This document shows positions 25,485-41,333 of a DNA stretch of 64,000 bases, piece after piece. This stretch comes from Giardia intestinalis (Eukaryota): NCBI GenBank assembly GCA_000002435.2, contig CM018792.1; one strand, 5' to 3'. Position numbers and translations under genes: made by a program. Each line of letters opens with the position of its first letter. The stretch's first letter is position 1. Below the pieces are notes generated by a model that was given only the letters and a program-made list of their open reading frames with translations, had not been told where the DNA came from and made no database searches.

Positions 25485-25987
25485 TGGTCGAGATGGTCTA
25501 TGATGTTTTTAATTTCTACAATTTGACAATGCAATTGGAGTCCTTGTAGCTATTTAGTGACTTTAGTGACAAATACTGAGGCTTTATGACAAGATAGAGG
25601 CCGCCAAAATCGTCAAGCATAAGCCTACCTCAACACTCTCAGTTGCTACATTGAATTCCCCATGGAAAATTGATAGGTTATAGCCATATCACCTTATCTG
25701 CTACTATAATAGTTGATGTATACTCAAATTTTTGCTAGATTAAAAGTACCGGGCTATTGATAACAACCTTCGCAATTGGTTAAGCTGATTTATTTACAAA
25801 GAATTCCTGATTTCCTCATTTCAACAGCCTTTAGTAAATTTGCGTGCTTTGCGATACCAGAGCAATTACTCCCAGATTACTCATTGTCATGGACTGCATG
25901 TCTGGGTTTGCGGCTTTAAATGCACAGTTTGAATGGATAAACTTAAAGGACAACTTATGCCTTTGAATTAATTTGGTGGAGATACCT

Positions 25988-28900
25988 ATGCTCCCAGTGC
26001 TCCGGCTGTATCTCAAGACGGCCAGGGCCCATCTTTATCTCTACATCTGCATGATTGTCATGCCGGTCGTTGTGATGGCCGCTGTCGCCCTCTTCTTCTC
26101 GTTCGAGGATAGACTGCAAAGCCCTAGCAGCGGCCTAGGCGAAGGGACTCTCCCGCGCCTCCCGTTGTGCAGGGACCTGCCTGGTTGCACGAGCCAGACC
26201 GTGTACCTTGCATTCTCCCCCGACACGATCGAAGCGCGCCGGGTCGTTGACAGACTCGCCCAACAGAACGGATTAGAGTCGGAGCGGATTGTTGCTGTAA
26301 AGGACCGCGCAACAATGCAGAGGCTTGTGGCCGGGAAGAATCTCGGCCCGAGCTTTGTCGATGACGTGATTGCGGCCAACCTGGGAGAGACGGTGCGGAG
26401 GCACCTCCTAGGCGCCGATGGCTCCCTCGCTTCGATCCTCACCCCGCGGGGGGTCCTTGCAGACAGGGGCGTCGTTGCAGAGATGCTTGACACAGCGTAT
26501 GGGCTTGATGACAGAACCCTGGATGCGTTCGATGACGAGTGGGCCGCGAGCATGGGACCGGCCGACAGCGTCTTCCTCGCGCTCGACCTAAACATCTCAA
26601 ACCGGGAAGCGTCAGACATCCCGCAGGCCGTCCAGTACTCGCTCTGGTACAGCCAGGAGATGATGACCTGGTACGCTGTCAAACACCCTAGTCCACGGAC
26701 AAGGTCCTCAACGCCTAACTCGTACGCCATGTCGTATGTGTGGAGCCCGGTGTCCTTCAGCATTTTCGAGGCGATTCACAACGCCCTGACGGGGACCTTT
26801 ATTGGCAAAACCATTTCGTACAGCCTGGGAGAGTATCCGTCGCAAGGCTCTACCACCACCCTTGCCGGGATGCAGGCGTACATGATTCTCCAGCTTTCTA
26901 TCTTCCTCGAGTGCATCCTGACCCTCATCTTCGCAGCGCATTTCCGCGGGCCCTTTCAGACCACGCTCCGCCGATTGGGTGTCTCGGAGTTCTGCATGTA
27001 CGGGCTCACGTTCGGCACACTTTTGATCGCCAACCTCTTGGCATACGGACTTCTCTTCGGTGCTGGCTCGCTCTTCAAGCTGTTCCCCTTCTCGAACTAC
27101 ACCCCTTCTCTTAACGCCCTTGTCAGCATCACCTTCGCCCTCATCACCACCGCCTCCGTGCTGCTCCTGCACATGTTCTTCTACAACACGTCGGTGGCAA
27201 TTGCCTTTGGGACGGTGGCCCTGATTCTGCTCGTGGCGTTCCCCTTCCTGATCCTCCTCGAGCAACCAGACTACCCCACGATCTGGACACAATTTGCTAT
27301 TCCAACCTGGCTGACAAAGGTCTTCTACGTCCTGTTTCCCCCCTTGGGGCTCGTCGCCATCTGCGACATGATGATAACGTTGAGACCGGAGCGTATGTCG
27401 ACTCTCCTTGTTGGACAGAGCGCCAGCATGTACGGCCTTGAGCTCCTGTTTAATGACATAGATGGATATCATTCAAAGCACTTTTCGTGTCTAGGTACAA
27501 TGGTTGCTAGTATATCTGAGTGTACTTTTCAGCTTCCTTACCTTGGATCTCTTGTCGTCATGTCCCTGATCCAGAGCACCCTAGCTCTTCCGCTGCTAAC
27601 TCTGGTTCTCCTCTTCTGCAAGCACGAGCCGGGCTCGCAAGGACTTCCCCTCGGCTTCCTCTGTAGCCGCAAGTTCTACCGTACAAGGTGCCCCAAGGAC
27701 AATCCAGAGTTCCCCTTTCTGTCTGTCTCAGGGCTTCGGAAGACATACCGTAAGGCAAAGAGATGCACGGTCGTCAAGGAGGAGGCGCTGTGCGGGCTGG
27801 ACTTGCACCTTGAGCAGGGAGAGGTCACGGGCCTCGTCGCGACAAGCGGCGGGGGAAAGTCCACAGCCCTGGGGATCATGGCTGGCGAACTGGCGCCCTC
27901 CGGCGGGCAGTGCGCAGGGCTCGGGCACGATCTCCTCTGTCCGTACACCGCACGGTCCCTGCGGGGGTTCATCTCGCTCTGTCCCCAGGAGTGGAACAAC
28001 CTCTGGATCAACCTCACCGTTAGGGAGAACGTTCTTCTGTGCGCAGAGATCCGGGCCAGGGTCACGGGCCGCCTCGGCGAGCTCCAGCACAGAAGCGGGT
28101 CTCTCGACGGATACGTCGACGAACTCCTGAAGCGCCTCGGGTTGCACGACCACGCGCACAAGCAGGCGTCTGCCCTGTCTGGGGGGATGCTTCGTCGCCT
28201 GGCCCTTGCAAACGCAACGGCGGGAGGTCCGCGGCTGATACTTCTCGACGAGATTACGGTGGGCGTGGATCCGATCCTGAAGCGCCAGATCTGGGCGTAC
28301 GTTCGCGCACTGGTCACAGAGGGCGCCGCAGCAGTCCTGTCCTCCCACGACGCCAACGAGATAGCAGAGCTAGCCACTCGCGTTGTCGTGCTCAAGGCCG
28401 GTCGGACGCAGGCCGATGCCCCTGTCGTGCAACTCCTTGAGGAGCATGGAGACTACGTGGTTTCAGTGACATCGGAAAGCCGCGACGCCATTTCACGAGT
28501 AGCGCTGCTGCTCTCGACGGAGCTAGGGACTCTGCTCGGAGTTGGCGCTAAAGAGCTAAGTGTTACAATGGACCCACGGCGCGCCAGCATATCCATCCCT
28601 GCAACACTAGTCCCAGATGCACATACTCTGACGAGTCTGATACAGCACTGCCGCGCCTTCGAGAAACGAGAGGGCGTCCAGGTTGCCGTCTCACGGGCCC
28701 GGCTGGAGGATGTCTTTGAGCACCTGCTGGATGGCGAAGACGACGCGCAGCCGGAGCCTCTGCGCTCAGTAACTCTGGACGAGGACAGAAAGCCCTCCGT
28801 GACGCGCCACCTGCTGCTCCTCTTCCTCTCCCTGGACCTTCAAGAGCACTGCAGAAGCTTTGTTTCCATACTTGCTGCACTGACCGCCCTGTTTGTGCTA

Positions 28901-31900
28901 ATTTGGATGGGGGTCCATTATACTCTTACTAGCGTCAAAAGTGCTATTGAGTTGGTAGAGGCAGCGCAACTTACTGAGTGGTCTCTGTCGTGCCTTGCTG
29001 ACTGCATCAACGCCAATCCCGGTGCAGACCCTTTGTTGACAGACGCCAATGTCACAACTGAAAACGTAAGCGAGTTTTTGAAGGCCAACCCAGGAATCGA
29101 TGCCCTTCAGGTCATGGAGCGCTGCCTGGTGAAGCGTCCTCGGCGACTCTTCGAGCCAATGCTTCAGTATCCAGACGGATTCTCCGCTTGTCTTAGCTAC
29201 ATGAATCACTTGGGCCTTGACACATATCGCTACGATTACTTGACCGTTGGAGATCGTCAGACAGGATCCCTGGGAACCAACGAGACGCAGTTCAATTGGT
29301 ACTACATTGGCGTAGTAGGTGACGCCTCGAAGGTCGAGACCTCAGACAGCGTATCATTGAGTCTGTCTTTGGACGACCCCCTTATAGCAAGCTCTCCAAC
29401 GGGAGGGCTTGACTATTATGTCGCAAACGAACCCCAGCAGATCTCTTTCTCTCCCCAGAACTTTGGGGATGTGTGGAGGAGGGGCGTGGAGGCAGGCCTC
29501 AGACACCCCTTGGACTCCGATGACCTGTTCTCGCTTGTGGCCCCCCGCATGACTGTACCTCAGTATCTTCGCAGTGACACATCTCCGCCCCCGAAGGATA
29601 CAGAGAATCGCACACTTCTGCTTGAGGAGACAATTCTTCGCCAACCCACGGCAAGTGACTTCTTCGAGGGGATTACGTCCACAATTGGCAGCACATTTAC
29701 CAAGCCAGACTGCTTCGATTCACAGCCGGCTGTACAAGCACGTGTGGTTCGCAGGGTGTTCAGAAGCATCCCTGCGGTTATCTTTCAACCAGGCCAGCAC
29801 GAGGCAGGCAGTGCGTTGCTTCTTAAGATGTATGCTATGCTTCCTCCTCTCGGGCCACAAGGCAAGGCCTATCGTGATTGGGTCATTACCTTTACTCCAT
29901 CGAAAGAGCGGGTCGATACGCCAGCATCTACCTCGAAATATTTCATCCCCACTTTATTTCAATATCTGTACAAATATGCTAACGGTGCCATTGATATCAC
30001 GAAAACCGATCGTGTCAGGTTCACATTCACGACGATTGGGGCGGATGCGATGGCCAAGATGACCGGCGCTCTCTTCCGTCAGCACCTCATAGAGTCTCTT
30101 CGGGACACGCTCGGCGTAGAGGAGGCGTGGCGCCAAGGGACAGAATTCACCTATGACGGGTCCGTGATGAGTATCCCTAGACGATATCTGAACAGAGATC
30201 TCATATTCGAAACTCCGGGGGCAGCTCTGCAATCGATGGAGATAATGAGTGACTACTACTTAGTGTTCCTCTTGTTGCTAGGAAGCGTTATTGTAGCTGG
30301 CCGCGCTGCCCGGGAGTTTCAGCAGCGCACCGTGACCCTTCTTCACCTCCACGGGGCCTCTGAAATGCGCGTTGTCATGGTTCTTATCCTGTACTTCAGC
30401 ATCTGGACCATCATCCCCACAATACTGATTGCAGCGGCCTTGACAGCACTCTTTAAGGACGCCTTCTTCATCCACGGTCCTGCAGTGGCCGCTGTCGCAT
30501 ATACCTGCCTGGGAATGATAGCTCTTTCCAGCGTGTTCAATGCAGTCCTAGTGGCCGTGCTCCTTCGCTCTCAGCAGAACGCCATGCTGACCGTGGTTCT
30601 CCAGATCCTCATCGCTGTCTTTGTCTCCGGCTCTCTCAGGGCCGAGGGAGCAGTGGCCGCCGTCCTGGGCCTTCTGGCTCCTGGTGTGGGGTACATGCCC
30701 GTGCTGCGAAACGCCATAGGACTTAGCCGCATTAGCTGGGGATCCCTTGCCCTCTCGTTTCTGATATCGCTGCTAGAGGTCTTTGCCTCGCTTGGCGTGC
30801 TGCTGCTCAGGAAGATTCGGGTCCGCCAGAGGATCAAAGACAGGACCCCTGACGGATCAGATTCAGAGGAGTCTGGACTGCTGAGCGGGCTGTCAGAAAC
30901 AACTTCCATGACCAGCCTCAATTTGGAGAGGAAGGATGCACCTCCCAGACACCCTGACAACCACCTCAGCGTGCAGGGGATCTCGCACAGCTATCGCAAG
31001 GGCGCCCACGCGCTCGACAACGCCTCGTTTTCGGTGCCGGCGGGGAGCATCTTCGCCCTGCTCGGCGCCAACGGGGCCGGGAAGTCTACGATGATGCACG
31101 CCCTGACCGGAGTCCTGAGGCCGACTGCTGGAAGCGCTCTCTGCGTGCGTAACGAGGCCGACAGCAGATGGGTTGACCTCTTCCGGCGGGTCCACCACAG
31201 CCGGTACATCACAGTTGTTCCCCAGCACGACCTTTACTGGCCGCAGCTCACGGTCCGCGACCACGTGAAGATCATCCGAGGGCTCACGCCCAGGGCACTT
31301 CGGCCAAACATCAAGTCGACGGACCACGTGCTCCGCCTGGTGGGGCTGGCCGAGCACGCCGACAAGAGGGCCAGTGCGCTCTCGGGCGGGATGCGGCGGC
31401 GCCTCACGCTCGCGATGGTCCTAGTCTCGTCTCCCTCGCTCATTTGCCTCGACGAGGCGACGACGGGCTTCTCGGGGCGCCTGAGGAAGCGGGTCTGGGA
31501 CGCCATTCTTGCCAGCAAGGGCGCCAACAAGACGCTCATCGTCACGAGCCACGACATGGCCGAGGTGGAGGCCCTGGCAGACACATGCTGCGTCCTCCGG
31601 AAGGGCCGGGTCATCGCCAGCGGGTCTGTCGATGATCTCTGTGCACAGAGTCGCGTGGCCTACACGCTCACTGTCGCGTGCGGATCATTGAAGGCATTCG
31701 ACACCTACCTTGCTGGCCCCCACAAGTGCGCCTGTGAATTCTCTGGTGGGCTGCTTGCAGACGCCGAAGTCAACAGCGTTGCACGGCTAGTCAAGTACAG
31801 GATCCCTCAAGGTGTGGACCTCGAGACGGCCATCTCCTCTCTGTCCTCGGTCGGGTGCCTAACGCACGCCTGGGCACTGACGCATGCACGCCTGGAAGAG

Positions 31901-31927
31901 GCGTTCATTGATTTAGTAGAACTCTAA
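25988..31927 (+). CDS. ABC transporter, full-size ABCA-like (TMD-NBD-TMD-NBD with a large extracytoplasmic domain).
   Basis: NBD1 has GLVATSGGGKST (Walker A) and LSGGMLRRLALANA...LILLDEITVGVD (signature and Walker B). NBD2 has LLGANGAGKSTMM and LSGGMRRRLTLAM...LICLDEATTGFS. Multi-pass hydrophobic blocks precede each NBD. The track starts at TTG 25973; the first ATG is 25988. Confidence 0.9.
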   Translation: MLPVLRLYLKTARAHLYLYICMIVMPVVVMAAVALFFSFEDRLQSPSSGLGEGTLPRLPLCRDLPGCTSQTVYLAFSPDTIEARRVVDRLAQQNGLESERIVAVKDRATMQRLVAGKNLGPSFVDDVIAANLGETVRRHLLGADGSLASILTPRGVLADRGVVAEMLDTAYGLDDRTLDAFDDEWAASMGPADSVFLALDLNISNREASDIPQAVQYSLWYSQEMMTWYAVKHPSPRTRSSTPNSYAMSYVWSPVSFSIFEAIHNALTGTFIGKTISYSLGEYPSQGSTTTLAGMQAYMILQLSIFLECILTLIFAAHFRGPFQTTLRRLGVSEFCMYGLTFGTLLIANLLAYGLLFGAGSLFKLFPFSNYTPSLNALVSITFALITTASVLLLHMFFYNTSVAIAFGTVALILLVAFPFLILLEQPDYPTIWTQFAIPTWLTKVFYVLFPPLGLVAICDMMITLRPERMSTLLVGQSASMYGLELLFNDIDGYHSKHFSCLGTMVASISECTFQLPYLGSLVVMSLIQSTLALPLLTLVLLFCKHEPGSQGLPLGFLCSRKFYRTRCPKDNPEFPFLSVSGLRKTYRKAKRCTVVKEEALCGLDLHLEQGEVTGLVATSGGGKSTALGIMAGELAPSGGQCAGLGHDLLCPYTARSLRGFISLCPQEWNNLWINLTVRENVLLCAEIRARVTGRLGELQHRSGSLDGYVDELLKRLGLHDHAHKQASALSGGMLRRLALANATAGGPRLILLDEITVGVDPILKRQIWAYVRALVTEGAAAVLSSHDANEIAELATRVVVLKAGRTQADAPVVQLLEEHGDYVVSVTSESRDAISRVALLLSTELGTLLGVGAKELSVTMDPRRASISIPATLVPDAHTLTSLIQHCRAFEKREGVQVAVSRARLEDVFEHLLDGEDDAQPEPLRSVTLDEDRKPSVTRHLLLLFLSLDLQEHCRSFVSILAALTALFVLIWMGVHYTLTSVKSAIELVEAAQLTEWSLSCLADCINANPGADPLLTDANVTTENVSEFLKANPGIDALQVMERCLVKRPRRLFEPMLQYPDGFSACLSYMNHLGLDTYRYDYLTVGDRQTGSLGTNETQFNWYYIGVVGDASKVETSDSVSLSLSLDDPLIASSPTGGLDYYVANEPQQISFSPQNFGDVWRRGVEAGLRHPLDSDDLFSLVAPRMTVPQYLRSDTSPPPKDTENRTLLLEETILRQPTASDFFEGITSTIGSTFTKPDCFDSQPAVQARVVRRVFRSIPAVIFQPGQHEAGSALLLKMYAMLPPLGPQGKAYRDWVITFTPSKERVDTPASTSKYFIPTLFQYLYKYANGAIDITKTDRVRFTFTTIGADAMAKMTGALFRQHLIESLRDTLGVEEAWRQGTEFTYDGSVMSIPRRYLNRDLIFETPGAALQSMEIMSDYYLVFLLLLGSVIVAGRAAREFQQRTVTLLHLHGASEMRVVMVLILYFSIWTIIPTILIAAALTALFKDAFFIHGPAVAAVAYTCLGMIALSSVFNAVLVAVLLRSQQNAMLTVVLQILIAVFVSGSLRAEGAVAAVLGLLAPGVGYMPVLRNAIGLSRISWGSLALSFLISLLEVFASLGVLLLRKIRVRQRIKDRTPDGSDSEESGLLSGLSETTSMTSLNLERKDAPPRHPDNHLSVQGISHSYRKGAHALDNASFSVPAGSIFALLGANGAGKSTMMHALTGVLRPTAGSALCVRNEADSRWVDLFRRVHHSRYITVVPQHDLYWPQLTVRDHVKIIRGLTPRALRPNIKSTDHVLRLVGLAEHADKRASALSGGMRRRLTLAMVLVSSPSLICLDEATTGFSGRLRKRVWDAILASKGANKTLIVTSHDMAEVEALADTCCVLRKGRVIASGSVDDLCAQSRVAYTLTVACGSLKAFDTYLAGPHKCACEFSGGLLADAEVNSVARLVKYRIPQGVDLETAISSLSSVGCLTHAWALTHARLEEAFIDLVEL

Positions 31928-31961: not shown

Positions 31962-32174
31962 ATGAAAGGTACAAAAATGAAAATCAATATGCAGGTCACA
32001 GACCTGGAGTCACTGGTGGAGACGGCTAATAAGATCAATTATCTTGCACAGTCCCAACAGCGCTATACAAATGAGCTTAAGAATATGACTGCACAGGTTA
32101 ACATGCTCCTTCAACGCATAGATGAGGTTGACGATCGCACTGCCACCGTTACAGCAACTCTTGCGTCGTACTAA
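31962..32174 (+). CDS. Possible small coiled-coil protein (70 aa), unannotated micro-ORF.
   Basis: MKGTKMKINMQVTDLESLVETANKINYLAQSQQRYTNELKNMTAQVNMLLQRIDEVDDR... is amphipathic and helical. The gene fits exactly between the ABC transporter stop (31927) and the convergent SurE stop (32191). There is no homology support. Confidence 0.3.
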   Translation: MKGTKMKINMQVTDLESLVETANKINYLAQSQQRYTNELKNMTAQVNMLLQRIDEVDDRTATVTATLASY

Positions 32175-32190
32175 GTGCTTAGCTGTATAT

Positions 32191-33366
32191 TTACTTCACC
32201 TTTACTACCTCAATCGTTGGCAGGGATCCTGCTAGAATGGTGTGCAGTGGAGCGGCCAAATGGGTATCATTTATACATATTAGTGAACCTAGGTACGATA
32301 TTCTTACTGATATAGATGGGTCAAAGTCCCAGTCAAGCTGTGGACAGGGAAATTCAATCGTGAATGGGAATTGACCGGAGATGGTCGTCGTATACTCGTA
32401 AAGCATTATATAGGGCACGTCCATTCTCCGGGCGTCAACCAGCTTCAGAGATAGCTGTGAGCCATCTGGAATGGAGCACGATGGGTTGTTTGTGCAGACG
32501 ATTGTTCCTTTAAGAGTTGGTGGGCGCTTGGGACCCAGATTTGAAAGAACCCGGAGTACAGAGTCGTATTCATCGGTATGAAATCTGTCCGGATTCAGAG
32601 GAGTTACCGTGACCCAACCCTTCTCCACGGCATCGAAGTCGGCCTCGATAGTGCTGGGGACCCCCCTGTTGGGTAAAGAATCAGGGTCCAGCTCTCCTCG
32701 CATGGTCCAGCTGGAAGACGAGTTTAGAAGATCAATAGGGATACTGTATGCATACTTTACGGAGTAGTACCTGTGCCCTAGTACGGCTGCCTTGCATCCA
32801 AGCACCGGAACATGTGGGGCAGGAATATTTACGTTCCAGACCATGCCTAATCGTGTGTAACGCTGTCTTTTGGAGCCGTTTTGCGCCAAGTAAGATATGT
32901 ATGCATCCAGAGTCGTCTGCACAGGCTCCTTGCAATTGCTGAGCATGCACATCCCCTCTTCATGGTGATGCAGACAGTCTCCAGGCATGCCTCGGGTGTC
33001 CATGGAATAAGAGATAGCATGATATCCCATGTTTGCAGCCTCAAAGCACGCCCCTACTGTTCCTGAGTGGCAAACGTCACTGCCGCAGTTGGCCCCATTA
33101 TTGATCCCGGCAACAACAAGCTCCACATCCGGATGTAGTTGCAGCCCAAGACGCACGCAATCCACTGGGGAGCCCTCGATAACGTATCCGTGGGCCACAC
33201 GGGAAACATTGAGCTCCTTTATGTAGTGCAGACTTTGGCTTTTTCCTGATTGGTCATGAGCCGGCGCTGCAACGATTACTGTATGTCCACTATCTAACAT
33301 TATTTGTCGTAAAGTAGTCAGCCCTATAAAGTTGTGCCCGTCGTCATTGGTGAGGAGTATACGCAT
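32191..33366 (-). CDS. surE: SurE-family 5'/3'-nucleotidase (survival protein E) with a C-terminal extension of about 130 aa.
   Basis: Matches are MRILLTNDDG, AAPAHDQSGKSQSL, GSPVDCVRLGL, VVAGINNGANCGSDVCHSGTVGACFEAA and DFDAVEKGWVTVTPL, which align with E. coli SurE (MRILLSNDDG.., [61 protein letters not shown]). I start at the second ATG (33366), which carries an AT-rich initiator. The track start at 33420 would overlap the upstream gene. Confidence 0.85.
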   Translation of the reverse strand: MRILLTNDDGHNFIGLTTLRQIMLDSGHTVIVAAPAHDQSGKSQSLHYIKELNVSRVAHGYVIEGSPVDCVRLGLQLHPDVELVVAGINNGANCGSDVCHSGTVGACFEAANMGYHAISYSMDTRGMPGDCLHHHEEGMCMLSNCKEPVQTTLDAYISYLAQNGSKRQRYTRLGMVWNVNIPAPHVPVLGCKAAVLGHRYYSVKYAYSIPIDLLNSSSSWTMRGELDPDSLPNRGVPSTIEADFDAVEKGWVTVTPLNPDRFHTDEYDSVLRVLSNLGPKRPPTLKGTIVCTNNPSCSIPDGSQLSLKLVDARRMDVPYIMLYEYTTTISGQFPFTIEFPCPQLDWDFDPSISVRISYLGSLICINDTHLAAPLHTILAGSLPTIEVVKVK

Positions 33367-33412
33367 CCTGCTTTTGTTGAAATGCAAATTTGTGGAGGAA
33401 GAGGGTATCCTC

Positions 33413-35548
33413 TTACACATAATTTACACAGTCGGCTACTTGGGCGCAGTCTAGGAGCATGTGGGGGTCAGGAATCCTCCTGTTCACCCAGCACTCATAC
33501 CTTCGTAAGGCGCTAGCAACTAGCTCAGGAGAAATACTGTATTCGCTGTTCAGCTTGCGAGCATCAAGGGGCTGATTCCTCCTGGAGCTAGCAGAATAAC
33601 TTCCAATAACCTTGTCGATGCAAGACTGTAAAACAGTATAAACCTCAGCAGATATGTCATTTCTCGCAGCCCCAAAGATAGAGTCAGGGATAGTGAGGAG
33701 GGGAATGCATGCGAAGTCATAGGCATGGTGCCTTTGCAAATAGTAAGAGGCTGCTAACGAATAAGGTTGCAGTAAAACTTGTCTTTCATAGAAGTCTTTG
33801 GGTCCGAAGCCCAGCCCGAGCAAGACGGAGACGACAATGAAAATGAGAACCTCGTTATATCGTGAAGCATAATAGCCCATGGTAAGCTTGATAAAAAGGT
33901 CTGACGGCGGGCTCTCGTCATCGGCCTTTGTAAGCTTAAGATACTGCGATTGAGCAAAAGGAGGCATTTGGAACCCGCTGGGACCCGCATTGGCAACATT
34001 CTGTGCAAGCGGATGCGACTTCCGATCCCTGTCCCTCTCTAGTTGGTCGTCTATGAGTTGCCGTTCAAGGGACGTAAGACACGAGATCCCAGCGTAGTGC
34101 TTCATTAATACCACGGTGAGATCATCAGAGAATTCCTTGTGAAGATTGCACTGTTCGCTCAGCCGCTCAGCGAGATGCAGGGAGTCTCCGACGGTCCCAG
34201 GACACAGATGCAGACCTGCCAGGAGACAGTCCAAAACAGTCGTACAGTACATCCTAAGTGAATGTATCTGCCCACTCATGACGCTGAGTAACAAAAGAGG
34301 ATCTATCCCCACCTCTCTGCACTGTGCACGTAGGGTCCTGACGCTTTCCTGCTGGGCACCGTCACCAGACATGGCTATTTCTCGTATAAGTTTTTCGCAG
34401 TGAGTCTGCGTATTGAGCGAGCAACCTTGAACGATTATCAGAGAGAGACTGGGAATATTCAGGAGTTTAAGAATACTTGCGACCTTCTCGTATTTGCCAG
34501 CTATAAGAAGTAGTGCTAACGAAGCATTAATATCCTGTGGAGACAATTCTTGAAAACTGCCCGTGCTAACCTGATCGGCCACCCTGATTGCATCAGCATA
34601 TTTGGTCAGTGATAATGCAGCTCCCGTAAATAATGCCTGCAGCCCATACTTTCTGGACACCACCTCCTTGGTAGAGTTCCGAAGCCCTTTCCGGGATTGT
34701 CCTGATATTTTTTTATTCCTTAGTAAGCGAGTTGATAGAGCCTCACTGTCTTCCAGCCCACCATGCTGGAGAATATCATCAATATATTCTGTCTCTGTAT
34801 ACACGTGAAGTCCCTCAAAGAGAGGAGCACTCGTTGTTTGTGAGATGACTGCTGGGTTGTTTGCGTAGAGACAGCACATCACATTGACAATGAAGTGTGC
34901 CTTGTGATTGGCACCAGCGGGTTGAATAAGGGCCAGGGCCATAAGCAAATAAAACGCCGTCTTCTCTATGTGGGGTTGTAAAGATTGGTTGGCATCCAAC
35001 TCGTGTCTAATGCCAAGGTTAGACAAAGAAAGGTAGCACAAATTAAATAAGTGGGTAGTAGGAGCACGATCTGGGACGCTCGTATCTGTGTAGGAGTAGG
35101 CACACGGCACGCTAGCCTTGTAGAATTCCCTTAACATCAGTAGATAATACGGTAGATCTGCAGCATTGTAAGGTTGCTCAGTAAGAACATTTCGCTCTCT
35201 CAAAGTTATGGATGTCATGTCACATGTATCGATGCGTTCAAGGCGTATGATAGCCTTGTCAGAGCTTGGTTGCATAGCGTTGCCATCTGATGTGAAAGCG
35301 ATTGGAGCTGCAGTGCTAAGCGTAGATAAGATAAGCGCAGAGTTAGTAACTGCACAGGAACCAATGCTACGAGTCTTAGGCAAAGCGAAGGGAAGTGAGA
35401 TGGGAAGACGTGGACACCCATCAGGAATCATGTAGACAGGCTCAGGCTGCTCCTGTTGGAGATTCTCAGCTAACCCCTCCTCAGCTGGTGAGTGCACCTG
35501 GCTGGCGCCTATCTCATATGCTGAAAGAAGGAGAGTCTTACTTAGCAT
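33413..35548 (-). CDS. Hypothetical alpha-helical protein (711 aa).
   Basis: Long ORF whose first ATG at 35548 is preceded by ttttgttttcaacttttggtaATG on the coding strand (the track start is TTG). No domain recognised. Confidence 0.55.
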   Translation of the reverse strand: MLSKTLLLSAYEIGASQVHSPAEEGLAENLQQEQPEPVYMIPDGCPRLPISLPFALPKTRSIGSCAVTNSALILSTLSTAAPIAFTSDGNAMQPSSDKAIIRLERIDTCDMTSITLRERNVLTEQPYNAADLPYYLLMLREFYKASVPCAYSYTDTSVPDRAPTTHLFNLCYLSLSNLGIRHELDANQSLQPHIEKTAFYLLMALALIQPAGANHKAHFIVNVMCCLYANNPAVISQTTSAPLFEGLHVYTETEYIDDILQHGGLEDSEALSTRLLRNKKISGQSRKGLRNSTKEVVSRKYGLQALFTGAALSLTKYADAIRVADQVSTGSFQELSPQDINASLALLLIAGKYEKVASILKLLNIPSLSLIIVQGCSLNTQTHCEKLIREIAMSGDGAQQESVRTLRAQCREVGIDPLLLLSVMSGQIHSLRMYCTTVLDCLLAGLHLCPGTVGDSLHLAERLSEQCNLHKEFSDDLTVVLMKHYAGISCLTSLERQLIDDQLERDRDRKSHPLAQNVANAGPSGFQMPPFAQSQYLKLTKADDESPPSDLFIKLTMGYYASRYNEVLIFIVVSVLLGLGFGPKDFYERQVLLQPYSLAASYYLQRHHAYDFACIPLLTIPDSIFGAARNDISAEVYTVLQSCIDKVIGSYSASSRRNQPLDARKLNSEYSISPELVASALRRYECWVNRRIPDPHMLLDCAQVADCVNYV

Positions 35549-35619
35549 TACCAAAAGTTGAAAACAAAAAGCCTTCTATTTATTGCAATTGCAATCGCAA
35601 TTGCAATTCGTTTTATTTT
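35549..35619. promoter_or_regulatory. 71-bp bidirectional AT-rich promoter region containing a (TTGCAA)n palindromic hexamer array.
   Basis: Sequence taccaaaagttgaaaacaaaaagccttctatttattgcaattgcaatcgcaattgcaattcgttttattttat lies between divergent ATGs at 35548 (-) and 35620 (+). Confidence 0.5.
35583..35606. repeat. Tandem TTGCAA/TCGCAA hexamer, 4 copies (a self-complementary motif).
   Basis: ttgcaa ttgcaa tcgcaa ttgcaa, read directly from the sequence. Confidence 0.8.
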
Positions 35620-36797
35620 ATATGGCCTGGAAGGCGATAGGCATAGCATCCCTTCTTGGGCTCATAGGAAGCAACTTTGTGAGACATGATGATGCAGCGC
35701 AGAGTCACAATAAGAGACCAAATAGCATAGTTGAGACAGGGCCTAGACCCACAATTCCGCAATCTAAAAGTCCGCGAGATCCGCCAAACACCTCACTTCT
35801 ATTAGTCTCCATTTCCAAGAGTATTACAAGTGATACAGCGCAACAAGACAAGGCCATTCATAGGGACGCGATCAACAGTACCCCACTCATGCATGCAGCG
35901 GCTAAGGGAGATCTGACCAAAATAAGCACATACATGCACATGGTCAGCAGACAGGACAACAGAGGAATGACAGCTCTCATGTATGCGGCATATTATGGTC
36001 ATGTAGAGGCTGTCAAACTGCTTGTGTGGGGCGAAGCAAAGATCCACGATAAAAGGGGGAAAACAGCATTAATGTATGCTGCTCAGCAAGGGTTTGGAGA
36101 ATGCGTTCGCGCCTTGCTTCCGTTTGAAAAGGGAATGGTGGACAAGGATAACTGGAACGCATTAATGTATTCGGCCATGTGTAACGACATGCCGTGCCAA
36201 GATCTAATTGATGCAGAGAGTACTTATCTAACGGGAGACAGCGACAGTATCTTGAAGGTTGGGCTTCTATCCAAGCATAACAAGATAGGAAAGAACGAAA
36301 TACAAAGCGCCAATCTCCCTCTAATTGAGGTCAATATACTGGGGATTACACCGCTAATGGAGGCAGCGACAGTTGGGGACATCCAAGGGGTGAAAGCACA
36401 CATTAAGACATATAGGGGACGGAAGGACCGCTACGGCACAACGGCCCTTATGTATGCAGCAATAGGAAACCACGTTGAGTGCGTTCGGTTGCTACGCACA
36501 TCAGAGCGACGAGAGCAGGACCACGAGGGATTCACGGCTCTCATGAGGGCAGCGATATACGGCAACATAGAGTGCATAGAGCTTCTTGCCGCTGATGAAG
36601 GTGGAATGCTTAACAATATTCAATGGAGTGCGATCGCATACCTTATTCAGAACAATTACTTCGAGGGTCTGCAATACCTTCTCCACCTAGAAGGAAATCT
36701 ACACGAAAAGGAAGAGGTGGGCTATTCCATATTTTCACTGCTGGAGCACTCAGCCAATCCACAAGTTCAGATGCTTCTGCAAGCTACTGAGATCTAG
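35620..36797 (+). CDS. Ankyrin-repeat protein (Giardia protein 21.1-like).
   Basis: Repeated TALMYAA..GH.E.V.LL ankyrin units (MTALMYAAYYGHVEAVKLL, KTALMYAAQQGFGECVRALL, TTALMYAAIGNHVECVRLL, FTALMRAAIYGNIECIELL). I start at the first ATG after the AT-rich tract; the track start is TTG 35583. Confidence 0.8.
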
Positions 36798-36976
36798 GCT
36801 TCTACATATCTAAGAGCTGTCGAGAGCCGTATGCAACCAAGCATGAGATCTAAGCGACTGAAAGGGTCTATAGTCTTTTTTCGTGGTCTATTAAACATTT
36901 GGGGGACGATACACGTCTGTAAGAAAGATAACAAGATAGGAAGTTAGCGCAAATGTACATCGACAGAGCGGGCTTC

Positions 36977-39574
36977 TTAGGAACACTTCTTGTGCGACAG
37001 ACCGTCCTCTGAACGGTAGATGATCGGGTACTTTTTCACAGGCCCGCCAGTAGTGTAGCCCAATGGTATTGGCAGGTAGACATCCAATAGATTATAATAA
37101 AGCAGAAGGATCCATTGATAAATGAGTAAGTGATGATCAAACATCTCAGAGTCGAAAATGAGTTCGTTGAATACTTCCGGAGGCGCAGAAAAGATCCGAA
37201 GAACAGAATAATTCTCAACGCCAAGTTCCTTTTGGCGCTTTACGAGATCTTTCAGTGTAGATATCTTATTTCCATAATTGAATGAGATCACGTACTGAAT
37301 GCCGGGGACATATGTATTAATATCTTCGTCTGGACAAGCGTAGTCCATAGTGAACGCCGTATACTCCTGCTTAAGTTCCTTGTCACTCATCTCCTTCAGT
37401 TTCTTCAGTTCTCCAGCAAATATCTTCTTGAGCTTCTGCACTGCATCAGTACTCTCATCTCTGATCTCCGGAGAAGCAACATCTGTTGACTCCGTTACGG
37501 AAAAGTTGGTAACAGCAAAGCTAGTGGCCAACTCCGAACCTGGGACCCAGACTCCCAGTTCCGATTCGGTGATGAATTCATTGTTCGGTAGTACAGATGG
37601 CTCCGATGATGGCGTTGCCGTGCTGCTTTCGGAGAAACTGGTAAAGATATCGGTAATTCGCGAGAATTCTTCTGTGCTTGATGAGTCATCTAGCTTAACT
37701 AAATTACATTCGATTAATCGCTCTGAAACAGCTTCTATAAGCTCTGTCGGGGCCTTCTCAATGAAATCGGCACCAGTGCGCAAGGAATGGCTGTCTCTGA
37801 CTGGGCAGTATTCGGAGATATCTGCAGATAGTGGGTTTGGTGTAGGCGATACTGGAACCTTGGGGTCATATGCCTTGTAAGAAGATCGAGACAGTATAGC
37901 ATCAGAAGGGTTATGTTCGACGGCTCCAATGGACAAATAATCGCCTGTAGATAGAATGTTACGTGGAAGTTTCTCTGTATTGCGATCTGTGCGGGAGCCT
38001 TTTACATGGACCGGGGTGGGTGTTGCAGACTCTGTAGCGGAAGAACCTGGGGCAGCACACTTAGACGAACCATCATTGTCACTGTCAGTGATCAGTATAG
38101 GCGGTTGATCAAGTCCAGAAACAACGCCGCATGTGACGTGTCTGCTCGTTGGTACTGCAAGGCTGATGTTTGACAAGGATGCGGACGAAGCTTTCTTTTT
38201 CTTCTTTTGGTGCCGTGCATCTGCAAATTCTTTGCGCAAATGCCGTCTCTTCGATATCTCCGAAAGTAGTCCGAGCCTCCTGAATGCGAAAAGAAAGCCT
38301 TTGGTGCTAATTCTGGGCCCGAAGTCGCTTTGCATGCAGATATTGATGAAGCCATAGCTAGATAGAAGGTCGCAGAGGGACTTACTACCACATGGCGGCG
38401 AACAAAACCCTATTACCTTTATACGTTGATATGGGATGTGATAGGACCAAAACCACCCCATCAACATGGAAACAGAACCGCCCAGCGAGTGCCCCGTTAA
38501 TGTAAGATAATAGTTAGGGTATTTTTCCAACGTATCTCGTAGTATCTTGTACGTGTCATGGTAGATGTATGCTGCTGCAGCGTAGATTCCTGCATGCCCG
38601 TAGTACTTTGTAAACTCGGTAATGGGCTTGATAAGCAAATCTTTCGATTTCAGCTTCCTCCGAAGCATTTGATATCGGTTCTTCTTCTCTTCTGTCATAC
38701 CAGGTGTGTATAGAGTCATATTATCTATGATTGGACTGTGTAGAGGTGGGTTATGAAAAGCCTTGTCCTTTCCCGACTTCATATGAGATGTTTTGGAGGC
38801 ACGTGTCTTTGTCGCCCTTTTCGTTTTTTTCAGCATCTGGGACTGTACGTACGTTCGGGGTTGAAGGCTTAATATTCCCTCAACGTTTGTTCGCTGTTGG
38901 ACGGCCGTTTCTGTGTCTATGTTGGTAACAAATTTATCGCGAGAAGATGCCTTGACCAAAAGCTCAAACTTCTCTGGCGGGGCTGTGTACTCGGTACTTA
39001 AACAAAAAATATCAGTTACCATGTCCGCCAGCGAATAGCTGCCTCTAATCGCCACAACTATCTCATACCGCCGATGGTCCAAATATATGGCTGCACATGG
39101 CATGAAATAACGTGCTTTAGTAGTGAAATAGAGGGTGTCGAGAGGCGAAACACCCATTGCTGCAGAAAATGTATTCAATTCAAATGTATTCTTTGCGCAC
39201 TTTCCATTGAGTGTGGGGCCGAACCTGCGGTTCCGGTGCTTGTAGTAGCGAGATGCCTGCTTTCTGATTCGGCTGGCGTTCAGAGTAGGAAGCTTAAAGG
39301 GATCGTGGTTCAGGGTGTACCTTGACTCATAAGAGCCGTAAACAGCGAATGCAGCACGACAATAATGTAGTAGTTCTGCTACAAAGTTAGGGTTAGTAAT
39401 AGAGGGGTAGATAGAGGAGGAGCAAAAGTTGGGATAAGGTTGCACCTTGTCACGCTTCATCTTGTTGATGAGAAAGAGCCTATTTGAGTTCGTCTCGGGG
39501 CTTATGTCTTTGAAGTGCTGAATAAGTAGCCTGACGATCCGAATAGCCTCGCCAACAGAGGTGAGGCAATCCAT
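36977..39574 (-). CDS. Class-3 lipase (sn-1 diacylglycerol-lipase-like alpha/beta hydrolase), 865 aa.
   Basis: The nucleophile elbow is LTGHSLGGSVSM, and upstream is VVAIRGSYSLADMVTDI (VVAIRGT..DW-type Lipase_3 motif). The start codon sits 2 nt after the stop codon of the upstream gene. Confidence 0.8.
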   Translation of the reverse strand: MDCLTSVGEAIRIVRLLIQHFKDISPETNSNRLFLINKMKRDKVQPYPNFCSSSIYPSITNPNFVAELLHYCRAAFAVYGSYESRYTLNHDPFKLPTLNASRIRKQASRYYKHRNRRFGPTLNGKCAKNTFELNTFSAAMGVSPLDTLYFTTKARYFMPCAAIYLDHRRYEIVVAIRGSYSLADMVTDIFCLSTEYTAPPEKFELLVKASSRDKFVTNIDTETAVQQRTNVEGILSLQPRTYVQSQMLKKTKRATKTRASKTSHMKSGKDKAFHNPPLHSPIIDNMTLYTPGMTEEKKNRYQMLRRKLKSKDLLIKPITEFTKYYGHAGIYAAAAYIYHDTYKILRDTLEKYPNYYLTLTGHSLGGSVSMLMGWFWSYHIPYQRIKVIGFCSPPCGSKSLCDLLSSYGFINICMQSDFGPRISTKGFLFAFRRLGLLSEISKRRHLRKEFADARHQKKKKKASSASLSNISLAVPTSRHVTCGVVSGLDQPPILITDSDNDGSSKCAAPGSSATESATPTPVHVKGSRTDRNTEKLPRNILSTGDYLSIGAVEHNPSDAILSRSSYKAYDPKVPVSPTPNPLSADISEYCPVRDSHSLRTGADFIEKAPTELIEAVSERLIECNLVKLDDSSSTEEFSRITDIFTSFSESSTATPSSEPSVLPNNEFITESELGVWVPGSELATSFAVTNFSVTESTDVASPEIRDESTDAVQKLKKIFAGELKKLKEMSDKELKQEYTAFTMDYACPDEDINTYVPGIQYVISFNYGNKISTLKDLVKRQKELGVENYSVLRIFSAPPEVFNELIFDSEMFDHHLLIYQWILLLYYNLLDVYLPIPLGYTTGGPVKKYPIIYRSEDGLSHKKCS

Positions 39575-39576
39575 TG

Positions 39577-41313
39577 CTAGTCTATTTTATTGGCCAAAAG
39601 ATTCTTTGAAGATACATCCTCAAAATCAGCGCCCGATACAAATGGGCACATGGTAATGTCTCCTGCATGCACAACACATAGCACCAGGATCTGCGGCGGG
39701 ACATATGCCTGGATGTCCCGTAGGTAGGGAAGTAGTTCTGAACAGGGGATTGGTGCTGGTGTTGCGATACAAAACTTCCTATTCTGAGGCGGAAGCGTCG
39801 ATATCCATAGTAAAAGTTCTCCTAGCGTTGGGGGAGATTTTGCTCCTGAGAGAGTAAAATGCTGAATAGATTTAAAACTATAGAGCGAAAGAACGCCATA
39901 TGCATATTGCGAAATGGCTTCGCTCTTCATTACTTGATACTTGTATATTAACTGGGAGAGAGAAGCCGTCGATTCTTTGAGCGTAGCTATCTGTCTTTCA
40001 CGTAACATATTGAAATACTTTTGTACAGCCTTTCCGGCCGAAGAGGAGCTTAGAGAGCGGGAGAGTATTGAGGAAATATGAATATTTGATAGCTCAAGGC
40101 GCAGGAGGACAAGATGAAGAGCGGCCTCAGCGTCCTCTATGCTACTATGCCCTGCTTCTGCATTAGTCTGTATGTCCTTTAGCAGATAACGTCGTGCTAG
40201 ATCCTGAAGGCGAGGCTTCCGGGTCCCGTGCTGGTAAAGCACACAAGTATCAATTACAAGAGGGTAGATCAATCCCAATGCTCGTAGGTCATTCTCGACC
40301 CCGTGACCAACAATGAACGGAAGAGATACACCACTCAGTGCCGACAAGTCTGTCGAGTGTTGTATCTGCTCAGCATATAGAAGTTCGTGCAGCTCGGATG
40401 GCAGAATGAAGCTCAAAATATGATCTCTTATGATATCCTTTGGGTGCTTTGAACTTGCATTTTCTAATATCTGTGCCGTGATCCCAGAATATTGTGTCTT
40501 GTAATCTACTACTTCTGTATCGCTCGGTAGCTCAACATACGCATCATAGACTAGGGAGAATATGCTCGTTACTGGAGTAGTTGTCCTCGTATTGCATTCA
40601 ACAACAGTCACTCTGGCCAAGTCATTCTCACACACTGACGTATGAATCATCTCGCAGTCAATGGCCAAAAGTACTCCGTTCCAATTATCTGCTAAGTTAT
40701 TAATAATGCACTGGGGAGGCAAGTAGAGGAATGGAGTAAATTGCTCCGACTCCAAAAGTAAATCCTTGATGCTGGTTATCCTTTGCATTCTCAAGCACAT
40801 ATCCTCTTCCAGTATGGTTTCAAAATAGTGAGTATTGGATATTTGGGTTCCGCTTGACAGCGAAACCGAGAATGGGTATTGTGCGTTCAGTATGGGAAAC
40901 ACGTCTGGCTTAGTATCATCGGTAAGCTCCAACTTTAAGAGAAGGACTCCCTTGCAGGAAAACTCGTTGTATAGTTCGAATGCCGTCTTATTTCTAGCAA
41001 GATGCCTAAAGGACACGCACCGCAAGATGGTTTCGCGCACAGCTGCGGGGCTCTTACTCTCACCTCGACCAATAGAGAACTGCGACAGCGGTCTGAGGAC
41101 ATTAGTTTCTTTGTTGTCCTCCGTTCCCTGTCTAGTGGTGGGTCCGCTAAGGCCTTGGACACGTTTGAGAAGACCCTCAAGTCGTGCACGCTTAGACTGA
41201 GAAAGCCGCGCCAAACATGCCTGCAGCTCTGCTACCTGTGCATCGGTGAGTTTTTTCTTTTCTGCGACGCGTATCAACCGTTTTGCCTGCTTGCATGCTA
41301 ACTCTGGGTTCAT
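39577..41313 (-). CDS. DEDDh-family 3'-5' exoribonuclease (REX/RNase-T-like). Alternative in-frame ATGs lie at 41370 and 41469.
   Basis: LAIDCEMI...ARVTVV (Exo I), IVGHGVENDLRAL (Exo II) and HSSIEDAEAAL (Exo III, with the DEDDh His). I chose the ATG at 41313 because it follows a 20-bp AT-rich spacer (aagtaaattgctgctacattATG). The longer alternatives would overlap the DHHC gene. Confidence 0.75.
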   Translation of the reverse strand: MNPELACKQAKRLIRVAEKKKLTDAQVAELQACLARLSQSKRARLEGLLKRVQGLSGPTTRQGTEDNKETNVLRPLSQFSIGRGESKSPAAVRETILRCVSFRHLARNKTAFELYNEFSCKGVLLLKLELTDDTKPDVFPILNAQYPFSVSLSSGTQISNTHYFETILEEDMCLRMQRITSIKDLLLESEQFTPFLYLPPQCIINNLADNWNGVLLAIDCEMIHTSVCENDLARVTVVECNTRTTTPVTSIFSLVYDAYVELPSDTEVVDYKTQYSGITAQILENASSKHPKDIIRDHILSFILPSELHELLYAEQIQHSTDLSALSGVSLPFIVGHGVENDLRALGLIYPLVIDTCVLYQHGTRKPRLQDLARRYLLKDIQTNAEAGHSSIEDAEAALHLVLLRLELSNIHISSILSRSLSSSSAGKAVQKYFNMLRERQIATLKESTASLSQLIYKYQVMKSEAISQYAYGVLSLYSFKSIQHFTLSGAKSPPTLGELLLWISTLPPQNRKFCIATPAPIPCSELLPYLRDIQAYVPPQILVLCVVHAGDITMCPFVSGADFEDVSSKNLLANKID

Positions 41314-41325
41314 AATGTAGCAGCA

Positions 41326-41332
41326 ATTTACT
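41326..41332 (-). promoter_or_regulatory. AGTAAAT polyadenylation signal, immediately 3' of the DHHC gene stop.
   Basis: The minus strand reads TAAAAGTAAATTG. This gives an exact AGTRAAY match whose sequence also forms the AT-rich initiator of the downstream exonuclease gene. Confidence 0.5.
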
Positions 41333-41333
41333 T

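What the first reader, a model, noticed from the sequence alone, without database searches (positions are those of the whole stretch)
32191..33366. Bacterial-type SurE nucleotidase with a C-terminal extension: a candidate lateral gene transfer
The protein matches the SurE stationary-phase survival nucleotidase motif-for-motif (MRILLTNDDG, SGxSxSL, PxDCV, SGINxGxNxGxDVxHSGTVxA, DFxAVExGxVxVTPL). SurE is predominantly prokaryotic and is patchy in eukaryotes. Giardia is known for many bacterium-derived metabolic genes. An extra segment of about 130 aa, (...RFHTDEYDSVLRVLSNLGPK...PCPQLDWDFDPSISV...), has no obvious counterpart in E. coli SurE.
Basis: partly seen in the sequence, partly recalled or inferred. 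Interest (0 to 1): 0.55.

Follow-up and report, generated by a model that had tools for sequence, protein, structure and literature searches.

The report
Giardia SurE phosphatase fused to YbaY-like domain
This is the already annotated Giardia "acid phosphatase SurE" gene; its extra C-terminal tail is a bacterial-type YbaY/YscW (pilotin-like) beta-sandwich domain that a distant Giardia relative still encodes as a separate gene right next to SurE, so it is a modest gene-fusion story and not a new kind of system.

Summary
Window 32191-33366 (minus strand) encodes a 391-aa protein 100% identical to the annotated "Acid phosphatase surE [Giardia duodenalis]". Residues 1-275 are a clear SurE domain (Pfam E 2e-39) and keep the metal-binding residues.

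In a distant, syntenic Giardia-lineage contig (L001), SurE (268 aa) and this domain (130-aa ORF) are separate adjacent genes. The G. intestinalis protein is therefore one side of a fusion/fission pair. Both domains are under purifying selection and the linker is relaxed.

None of 80 bacterial surE loci has such a neighbour, and no other SurE+YscW fusion was seen.

Lateral transfer is plausible: every named close hit is bacterial, and no other eukaryote appears in the best 120. It is not proven. The donor is unresolved, base composition is native, and no eukaryotic SurE could be put in a tree.

Interest is low to moderate.

The parts
32191..33366 (-). Complete CDS of the SurE-YbaY/YscW fusion protein (391 aa plus a TAA stop at 32191-32193)
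   Evidence: ORF list. 100% identical to the annotated G. duodenalis 'Acid phosphatase surE', P0001. Uninterrupted orthologous ORFs of 392-397 aa in three other assemblages.
32542..33366 (-). SurE phosphatase/nucleotidase domain, residues 1-275
   Evidence: Pfam PF01975 E 2e-39. NCBIfam SurE models E 4e-37, but below their equivalog cutoffs. PDB SurE chains match to E 4e-24. dN/dS 0.03-0.07.
33337..33348 (-). N-D-D-G motif (residues 7-10). D8 and D9 are the expected metal ligands, together with S40 and N89.
   Evidence: Invariant in alignment A1 and aligned to the same motif of solved SurE. The ligand roles come from my own knowledge of the published T. maritima and Salmonella SurE structures, not from a test here.
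32929..32997 (-). Cys/His-rich insertion inside the SurE domain (residues 124-146)
   Evidence: Gap in the L001 SurE and in bacterial SurE. 84% conserved within the G. intestinalis complex.
32518..32541 (-). Inter-domain linker (residues ~276-283). The wider window measured was residues 263-283.
   Evidence: Residues 263-283 show 40% identity with indels, against 82% and 70% for the two domains. Their dN/dS is 0.3-0.46. The linker corresponds to the stop codons and spacer between the two ORFs in L001.
32194..32517 (-). YbaY/YscW-type (pilotin-like) beta-sandwich domain, residues 284-391
32189..32195 (-). AGTAAAT, matching the Giardia poly(A) signal consensus AGTRAAY and overlapping the stop codon
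   Evidence: Read from the sequence. The consensus is from my own knowledge. Other genes in the window lack a strict match, so this is weak evidence.
33367..33412 (-). 46-nt intergenic region with an A-rich stretch (caacaaaagcagg) just before the ATG
   Evidence: Sequence. The promoter role is inferred from what is known of short Giardia initiator regions.

Best explanation
The gene encodes a probably cytosolic two-domain protein.

The N-terminal 275 residues are a SurE-family, divalent-metal-dependent phosphatase (5'/3'-nucleotidase or acid phosphatase type). It keeps the catalytic and metal-binding residues D8, D9, S40 and N89, so it most likely dephosphorylates nucleoside monophosphates. 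That would be a sensible activity in a parasite that lives on nucleotide salvage. Activity is inferred, not shown.

The C-terminal ~110 residues are a YbaY/YscW/ExsB-type beta-sandwich. In bacteria this domain is carried by periplasmic lipoproteins, some of which pilot secretins. Here it has no signal peptide or lipobox and there is no secretin, so it must serve as a generic binding or regulatory module attached to the enzyme. This function is inferred.

The architecture arose from two adjacent genes. A distant Giardia-lineage relative keeps SurE and the YbaY-like ORF as neighbours in the same frame, separated by two stop codons and a short spacer. In the G. intestinalis complex they form one ORF joined by a fast-evolving linker. 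I favour fusion in the G. intestinalis lineage, at about 60:40 over fission in the relative.

Both domain families are overwhelmingly bacterial. An ancient bacterial origin by lateral transfer into the Giardia lineage is the likeliest source, but the donor is unresolved.
For: - Identity and annotation.
- SurE domain. Invariant catalytic motifs.
- C-domain is PF09619:
  - Above the curated cutoff in all six sequences.
  - A profile of the Giardia/L001 domain against 1.84 billion representatives gives 24 hits. The ten scanned are all PF09619 proteins, and several are named YbaY lipoprotein.
  - The 24-sequence alignment has invariant D33, D38, P56 and L84.
  - The family profile hits PDB 5wec at E 7.8e-30.
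  - The AF2 model has pLDDT 90.4 and pTM 0.81.
- Split state in L001:
  - SurE of 268 aa stops at 6805-6807.
  - The 130-aa ORF at 6847-7239 is homologous to the C-domain (BLASTP E 8e-14).
  - Five flanking genes are syntenic.
  - The SurE sequences of G. intestinalis and L001 group together in 99/100 NJ bootstraps.
- Fusion conserved and selected:
  - Intact ORFs in four assemblages.
  - dN/dS is 0.03-0.07 (SurE), 0.13-0.27 (C-domain) and 0.3-0.46 (linker).
  - The linker is 40% identical with indels.
- Bacterial affinity: all named near hits are bacterial MAGs and none is a named eukaryote.
Against: - Polarity is not settled. Only two lineages are available. The two L001 ORFs are in the same reading frame. 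That is automatic under fission by a nonsense mutation, but expected only one time in three under independent genes.
- L001 is a single 12-kb contig from one sequencing run of an unidentified organism.
- No enzymatic, expression or localisation data were found.
- The protein scores below every NCBIfam SurE equivalog cutoff, so it is a divergent member.
- The full-length AF2 model was poor (pLDDT 54), so the arrangement of the two domains is unknown.
- For lateral transfer: no stable bacterial sister, native GC3 and codon usage, and no eukaryotic SurE in the tree.
Confidence: 0.7

Rival explanations
1. Fission, not fusion. The common ancestor of the Giardia lineage had the fused SurE-YbaY gene. 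The L001 lineage split it by a nonsense mutation in the linker and recruited an internal ATG.
For: The two L001 ORFs are in the same frame, with only TAA and TGA plus 39 nt between them. This is what a nonsense mutation in a linker would leave behind. The linker is the least constrained part of the protein.
Against: All bacterial SurE seen are stand-alone proteins of ~240-290 aa, and no fused form was found in the best 120 hits of two searches or in 80 loci. A separate state must therefore have existed at some point. The second ATG of the L001 ORF (6886) is preceded by the same A-rich run as every other gene on that contig, which suggests an established independent start. L001 has ~21 more codons between the domains than G. 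intestinalis, which fits a deletion that removed the stops.
Confidence: 0.35
2. The SurE gene was inherited vertically from an ancestral eukaryotic SurE (as found in plants and fungi) and is merely very divergent. There was no lateral transfer.
For: SurE exists in some eukaryotes (own knowledge). Composition and codon usage are fully native. The gene is old within the Giardia lineage. No bacterial sister is supported. Distances are near saturation, 0.69 to L001 against 0.71-0.74 to bacteria.
Against: No named eukaryote other than Giardia appears among the best 120 hits of either search, while every named hit is bacterial. No other diplomonad or metamonad homologue surfaced. The length and architecture of the SurE part match bacterial SurE end to end.
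Confidence: 0.25
3. Operon co-transfer. surE and a ybaY-like gene were neighbours in a bacterial donor, were acquired together, and were later fused.
For: Both families are predominantly bacterial. In L001 the two genes are adjacent, on the same strand and tightly spaced.
Against: None of 80 bacterial surE loci (±6 kb) has a PF09619-family ORF. Two further surE contexts and two YscW-family contexts show no linkage. The closest C-domain relative found is a fungal protein, not a bacterial neighbour of surE.
Confidence: 0.12
4. The tail is a lineage-specific, non-domain extension, either disordered or a read-through artefact. Alternatively, the locus is bacterial contamination.
For: The first AF2 run on the full-length protein gave low confidence for the tail.
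Against: With a proper alignment the tail folds at pLDDT 90. It matches PF09619 by sequence and by fold and is under purifying selection. The gene sits on a 2.76-Mb Giardia chromosome between Giardia genes, and the synteny is conserved in four assemblages.
Confidence: 0.02

Closest known systems
Bacterial SurE 5'/3'-nucleotidase / acid phosphatase (Pfam PF01975; e.g. Xylella 5ksq, Salmonella 2v4n, T. maritima 1j9j)
   Same: Alignment runs from residue 1 to ~275. The NDDG, SGxS, GINxGxNxG and SGTV motifs are present, as is the C-terminal helix.
   Different: 30-35% identity only, and below all NCBIfam equivalog cutoffs. It has a Cys/His-rich internal insertion (residues 124-146) and a fused C-terminal domain not seen in any bacterial SurE examined.
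YbaY / YscW / ExsB family lipoproteins (Pfam PF09619; PDB 5wec Vibrio cholerae alternative T2SS pilotin, 2yjl P. aeruginosa ExsB)
   Same: Sequence family membership and the conserved motifs (L.V.L.D....D, P..F, Y..S.RI, L.FIND). The predicted beta-sandwich fold is the same.
   Different: No signal peptide and no lipobox cysteine. The domain is internal to a probably cytosolic eukaryotic enzyme. Giardia has no secretin to pilot. Identity is only 19-30%.
SurE + adjacent 130-aa YbaY-like ORF in the unidentified Giardia-lineage contig L001 (Logan SRR30592944)
   Same: Positional orthologues. Five flanking genes are syntenic. SurE is 35-37% identical and the C-domain 28% identical.
   Different: Two ORFs, separated by TAA, TGA and a spacer, instead of one. 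The SurE lacks the Cys/His insertion.
Eukaryotic PF09619 proteins (Hyaloraphidium curvatum KAI9007649.1; Adineta steineri CAF1019163.1)
   Same: YbaY-type domains encoded in eukaryotic genomes. The Hyaloraphidium protein is the best non-Giardia hit to the C-domain profile, E 8.7e-12.
   Different: These are stand-alone or tandem-repeat proteins. None is linked to SurE.

Membership tests
SurE (PF01975) | Scores above the Pfam gathering threshold over the whole domain | tested here: met
   135.8 bits against a cutoff of 22.1; profile positions 1-188 of 189.
SurE (PF01975) | N-terminal DD motif and the Ser/Asn metal ligands are conserved | tested here: met
   D8, D9, S40 and N89 are invariant in A1 and aligned to solved SurE. 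The ligand assignment is from published structures, recalled from memory.
SurE (PF01975) | Reaches the NCBIfam/TIGRFAM equivalog cutoff (same function as bacterial SurE) | tested here: not met
   Best score is 127.9 bits against a cutoff of 295. TIGR00087 scores 113.9 against 135.1. It is a divergent member, so functional equivalence is not guaranteed.
SurE (PF01975) | Metal-dependent nucleotidase/phosphatase activity | not testable with these tools
   No biochemical data were found in the paper library.
YscW/YbaY (PF09619) | Scores above the Pfam gathering threshold | tested here: met
   25.2 bits (full protein) and 28.9 bits (domain alone) against a cutoff of 22.6. All 6 lineages match.
YscW/YbaY (PF09619) | Reciprocal search: a profile of the domain retrieves family members | tested here: met
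   24 hits at E<=1e-3. The ten scanned all carry PF09619 at E 1e-11 to 1e-139. PDB 5wec matches at E 7.8e-30.
YscW/YbaY (PF09619) | ExsB/pilotin-type beta-sandwich fold | tested here: met
YscW/YbaY (PF09619) | Lipoprotein signal peptide with a lipobox cysteine | tested here: not met
   The domain begins at residue ~284 of a protein whose N-terminus is the SurE catalytic strand MRILLTNDDG. The L001 ORF has no lipobox.
YscW/YbaY (PF09619) | Pilotin function (binds and targets a secretin) | not testable with these tools
   No secretin is expected in a eukaryote. Most family members (YbaY) have no known function either.
Laterally transferred gene of bacterial origin | Nested within a bacterial clade, with support, to the exclusion of other eukaryotes | tested here: inconclusive
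   NJ tree of 78 sequences. The Giardia-lineage clade gets 99/100, but its sister is unstable (best 25/100). No eukaryotic SurE was available.
Laterally transferred gene of bacterial origin | Absent from related eukaryotes | tested here: inconclusive
   No named eukaryote other than Giardia is in the best 120 hits of two searches.
Laterally transferred gene of bacterial origin | Deviant base composition or codon usage (recent transfer) | tested here: not met
   GC3 is 0.518 against a window mean of 0.529 ± 0.070. Codon distance is typical for the gene's length. Any transfer is ancient.

The most novel reading that the evidence does not exclude
An ancestor of Giardia captured two bacterial genes, a surE and a ybaY/pilotin-like lipoprotein gene, possibly together. 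They were kept side by side and then welded into one protein in the G. intestinalis lineage. On this reading the periplasmic pilotin fold was repurposed as a cytosolic regulatory, oligomerisation or targeting module for a nucleotide phosphatase. That would be the first functional clue for the large, uncharacterised YbaY family: a link to nucleotide or phosphate metabolism.
Probability: 0.15. Interest if true: 0.5.

Novelty: new variant of a known kind. Interest (0 to 1): 0.3.

Why it matters
The SurE gene itself is ordinary and already annotated. Two things are mildly useful.

First, the tail is a bona fide YbaY/YscW domain, and the SurE and YbaY-like genes form a fusion/fission ("Rosetta stone") pair in the Giardia lineage. 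That predicts a functional link between a nucleotide phosphatase and a domain family whose non-pilotin members have no known role.

Second, it is a clean, datable example of domain-architecture change after a probable ancient bacterial acquisition in a parasite that depends on nucleotide salvage.

It does not open a long-standing question. If the enzyme proved important for nucleotide pool control, its bacterial-type architecture could make it a selective drug target, but nothing here shows that it is essential.

Tried and rejected
- **Literature.** Eight full-text searches on Giardia SurE, acid phosphatase surE, LGT and YbaY/YscW found no paper on this gene. Every "sure" hit that was opened was the English word.
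- **Published genome and metabolism papers.** The G. muris genome paper and its partly stored supplement do not mention SurE, and gene-size pairs for the L001 genes were not found there. The diplomonad metabolic reconstruction lists EC 3.1.3.5 as "ancestral" and EC 3.1.3.2 as "ancestral (LGT candidate)". It does so per reaction, not per gene, so these labels cannot be assigned to SurE.
- **Full-length AlphaFold.** With a 6-sequence alignment the model reached only pLDDT 54. It is unusable for domain arrangement.
- **afdb50 fold search.** This library was not available.
- **Word-indexed protein search with the C-domain profile.** It found only the L001 ORF. The exhaustive HMMER search was needed.
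- **Identifying the L001 organism.** Its proteins are singletons from one Logan run and carry no names. It uses the standard genetic code (long ORFs), so it is not a Hexamitinae-type diplomonad. I could not confirm or exclude G. muris.
- **Bacterial operon linkage of surE with a ybaY-like gene.** None was found in 80 loci or in four further contexts.
- **Poly(A)-signal comparison.** I tried it to decide whether the L001 ORFs are separately transcribed. A strict AGTRAAY is missing after most genes, so it is uninformative.
- **Donor inference by NJ bootstrap.** Unresolved.
- **Second copy.** No other SurE or YscW copy exists in the window.

Full report
**1. What is at the coordinates**

The minus strand carries an ORF at 32191..33420. 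Translation from the second ATG (33366, MRILLTNDDG...) gives 391 aa. This product is 100% identical, over its full length, to the database protein "Acid phosphatase surE [Giardia duodenalis]", which sits on a 2.76-Mb contig. The window is therefore a Giardia intestinalis chromosome segment, and the gene is already annotated.

The first ATG (33420) lies within the last codons of the upstream gene, whose stop is at 33413-33415. The 46-nt spacer before 33366 ends in an A-rich run. An AGTAAAT motif overlaps the TAA stop.

**2. The SurE part**

- Pfam PF01975 matches residues 3-202 at E 2e-39.
- Thirteen NCBIfam SurE models match, the best at E 4e-37, but all below their equivalog cutoffs.
- Fifteen distinct solved SurE chains match, the best being 5ksq at E 4e-24. 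The alignments run from residue 1 to ~266-278.
- The NDDG, QSGKS, GINNGANCG and HSGTV motifs are invariant across five G. intestinalis-complex orthologues and one distant relative.

From published SurE structures (my own knowledge), D8, D9, S40 and N89 correspond to the metal ligands. The enzyme therefore looks catalytically competent.

There is one lineage-specific feature: a Cys/His-rich insertion at residues 124-146 that is absent from bacterial SurE and from the distant relative.

**3. The "extension" is a known domain**

The SurE fold, including its C-terminal helix, ends near residue 275-278. The extra part is about 113 aa.

- Pfam finds PF09619 (YscW, "type III secretion system lipoprotein chaperone") at residues 284-369. 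This is above the curated cutoff, and the same holds in all six lineages when the domain is scanned alone.
- I searched 1.84 billion representative proteins with a profile of the Giardia and L001 domains, using exhaustive HMMER. It gave 24 hits at E<=1e-3.
  - All ten hits that I scanned carry PF09619, at E 1e-11 to 1e-139, often in tandem repeats or combined with META or MliC domains.
  - The named ones are "YbaY family lipoprotein" or "uncharacterized lipoprotein YbaY". There is also a fungal protein (Hyaloraphidium curvatum) and a bdelloid rotifer protein (Adineta steineri).
- A 24-sequence alignment shows shared motifs, with invariant D33, D38, P56 and L84.
- The family profile hits PDB 5wec at E 7.8e-30.
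- With this alignment, AlphaFold2 gives an all-beta model at pLDDT 90.4 and pTM 0.81.

Sequence, reciprocal search and fold agree. What the domain lacks is the bacterial context: there is no signal peptide or lipobox, and Giardia has no secretin.

**4. Where the domain came from: an adjacent gene**

The only non-G. intestinalis relative that stands clearly above the bacterial hits is P0006 (268 aa, 35-37% identical, E 8e-38). It lies on a 12.3-kb contig from one Logan-assembled run (L001). That SurE stops where bacterial SurE stops.

- 39 nt downstream, in the same frame and past a second stop (TGA), starts a 130-aa ORF.
- This ORF is homologous to the Giardia C-terminal domain (BLASTP E 8e-14) and also matches PF09619.
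- The flanks are syntenic with the window. The upstream 613-aa gene matches 33413..35554 at E 5e-72. The lipase gene, the 565-aa gene and a small convergent 57-aa gene follow in the same order and orientation.
- The two SurE sequences group together in 99 of 100 NJ bootstraps.
- L001 is very compact and uses the standard genetic code. Its proteins are unnamed singletons. It is a deeply diverging Giardia-lineage organism that I could not identify.

SurE and the YbaY-like domain are therefore two neighbouring genes in one lineage and a single gene in the other.

**5. The fusion is real and maintained**

- In three other assemblages of the G. intestinalis complex (P15 and two Logan assemblies) the ORF is uninterrupted, 392-397 aa, in the same neighbourhood: Ank / 712 aa / SurE fusion / ABC transporter.
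- Identity within the complex is 82% in the SurE core and 70% in the C-domain. Across residues 263-283, which include the linker, it is only 40%, with indels.
- Nei-Gojobori dN/dS is 0.03-0.07 for SurE, 0.13-0.27 for the C-domain and 0.3-0.46 for residues 263-283.
- Both domains are under purifying selection. The linker behaves like a former gene end and spacer.

**6. Polarity**

Bacterial SurE proteins are all stand-alone. No SurE+PF09619 protein appears in the best 120 hits of either search. The separate state must therefore be ancestral at some level, which favours fusion in the G. intestinalis lineage.

Two further points support this.
- The extra ~21 codons between the domains in L001 fit a stop-removing deletion in G. 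intestinalis.
- The A-rich run before the second ATG of the L001 ORF, shared with the other genes on that contig, fits an independent gene.

Against this, the two L001 ORFs are in the same frame. That is what a nonsense-mutation fission would leave. I put fusion against fission at roughly 60:40.

**7. Lateral transfer**

Evidence in favour:
- Both domain families are overwhelmingly bacterial.
- All named close hits are bacterial: Planctomycetota, Clostridia, Desulfobacterota, Spirochaetota, Alphaproteobacteria and others.
- No other diplomonad or named eukaryote appears.

Evidence that is neutral or against:
- Hit scores form a flat plateau (E 1e-37 to 1e-32).
- The NJ sister group is unstable. 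Gut Clostridia appear in 25/100 replicates, Selenomonadales in 22/100, and others make up the rest.
- Distances are near saturation.
- GC3 (0.518 against 0.529 ± 0.070) and codon usage are native.

I could not obtain eukaryotic SurE sequences with these tools. Transfer, if it happened, predates the split between G. intestinalis and the L001 lineage.

Co-transfer of a bacterial surE-ybaY operon finds no support. None of 80 bacterial surE loci (±6 kb) contains a PF09619-family ORF. Four further contexts show no linkage either.

**8. Mechanism**

- Shown: domain identities, conserved catalytic residues, purifying selection, and the fusion/fission relationship.
- Inferred: the protein is a cytosolic, metal-dependent nucleoside-monophosphate / acid phosphatase, and its C-terminal beta-sandwich acts as a binding, assembly or regulatory module.

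In solved SurE structures the C-terminal helix is swapped between subunits (own knowledge). A domain attached right after that helix could sit on the partner subunit and influence oligomerisation. This is speculation. The full-length model was too poor to test it.

**9. Verdict**

The gene is already annotated as SurE, and the precomputed Pfam listing already pairs PF09619 with PF01975 for this protein.

What is new here is the demonstration that the tail is a genuine YbaY/pilotin-fold domain and one half of an adjacent-gene fusion/fission pair in the Giardia lineage. That makes it a new variant of known kinds, of low to moderate interest.

Noticed in passing
window 31989-32174 (+); L001 7281-7454 (-): A 61-aa, coiled-coil-like ORF converges on the SurE gene, its stop lying 16 nt from the SurE stop. 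It is 66% identical over 56 aa to the positional orthologue in the distant L001 contig, far more conserved than its neighbours (28-49%). No Pfam family reaches its cutoff.
   Followed up: partly
L001 (Logan SRR30592944, 12.3-kb contig): A very compact contig (gaps of -10 to 39 nt between genes) from an unidentified, deeply diverging Giardia-lineage organism. It is syntenic with window 31989-41469. All its proteins are unnamed singletons in the 15-billion-protein collection.
   Followed up: partly
window 25973-31927 (+): The 1,984-aa ABC-transporter ORF next to SurE has GC 0.58 and GC3 0.69, the highest in the window (mean GC3 0.53). It is absent from the corresponding position in L001.
   Followed up: no
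window 32929-32997 (-), SurE residues 124-146: A Cys/His-rich insertion (TRGMPGDCLHHHEEGMCMLSNCK) is specific to the G. intestinalis complex. It is 84% conserved there, but the individual Cys residues are not all invariant.
   Followed up: partly
L085 6001-7405 (Hyaloraphidium curvatum); P0140 (Adineta steineri): YbaY/YscW-domain proteins occur sporadically in other eukaryotes. One is an intron-containing gene with two tandem domains in a chytrid-like fungus. Others are in a bdelloid rotifer. The fungal protein is the best non-Giardia match to the Giardia C-domain profile.
   Followed up: partly
window 35583-36797 (+): An ankyrin-repeat gene lies between the lipase gene and the 713-aa gene in all G. 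intestinalis assemblages examined. It is missing at that position in L001. It is a lineage-specific insertion or loss that breaks otherwise conserved synteny.
   Followed up: no
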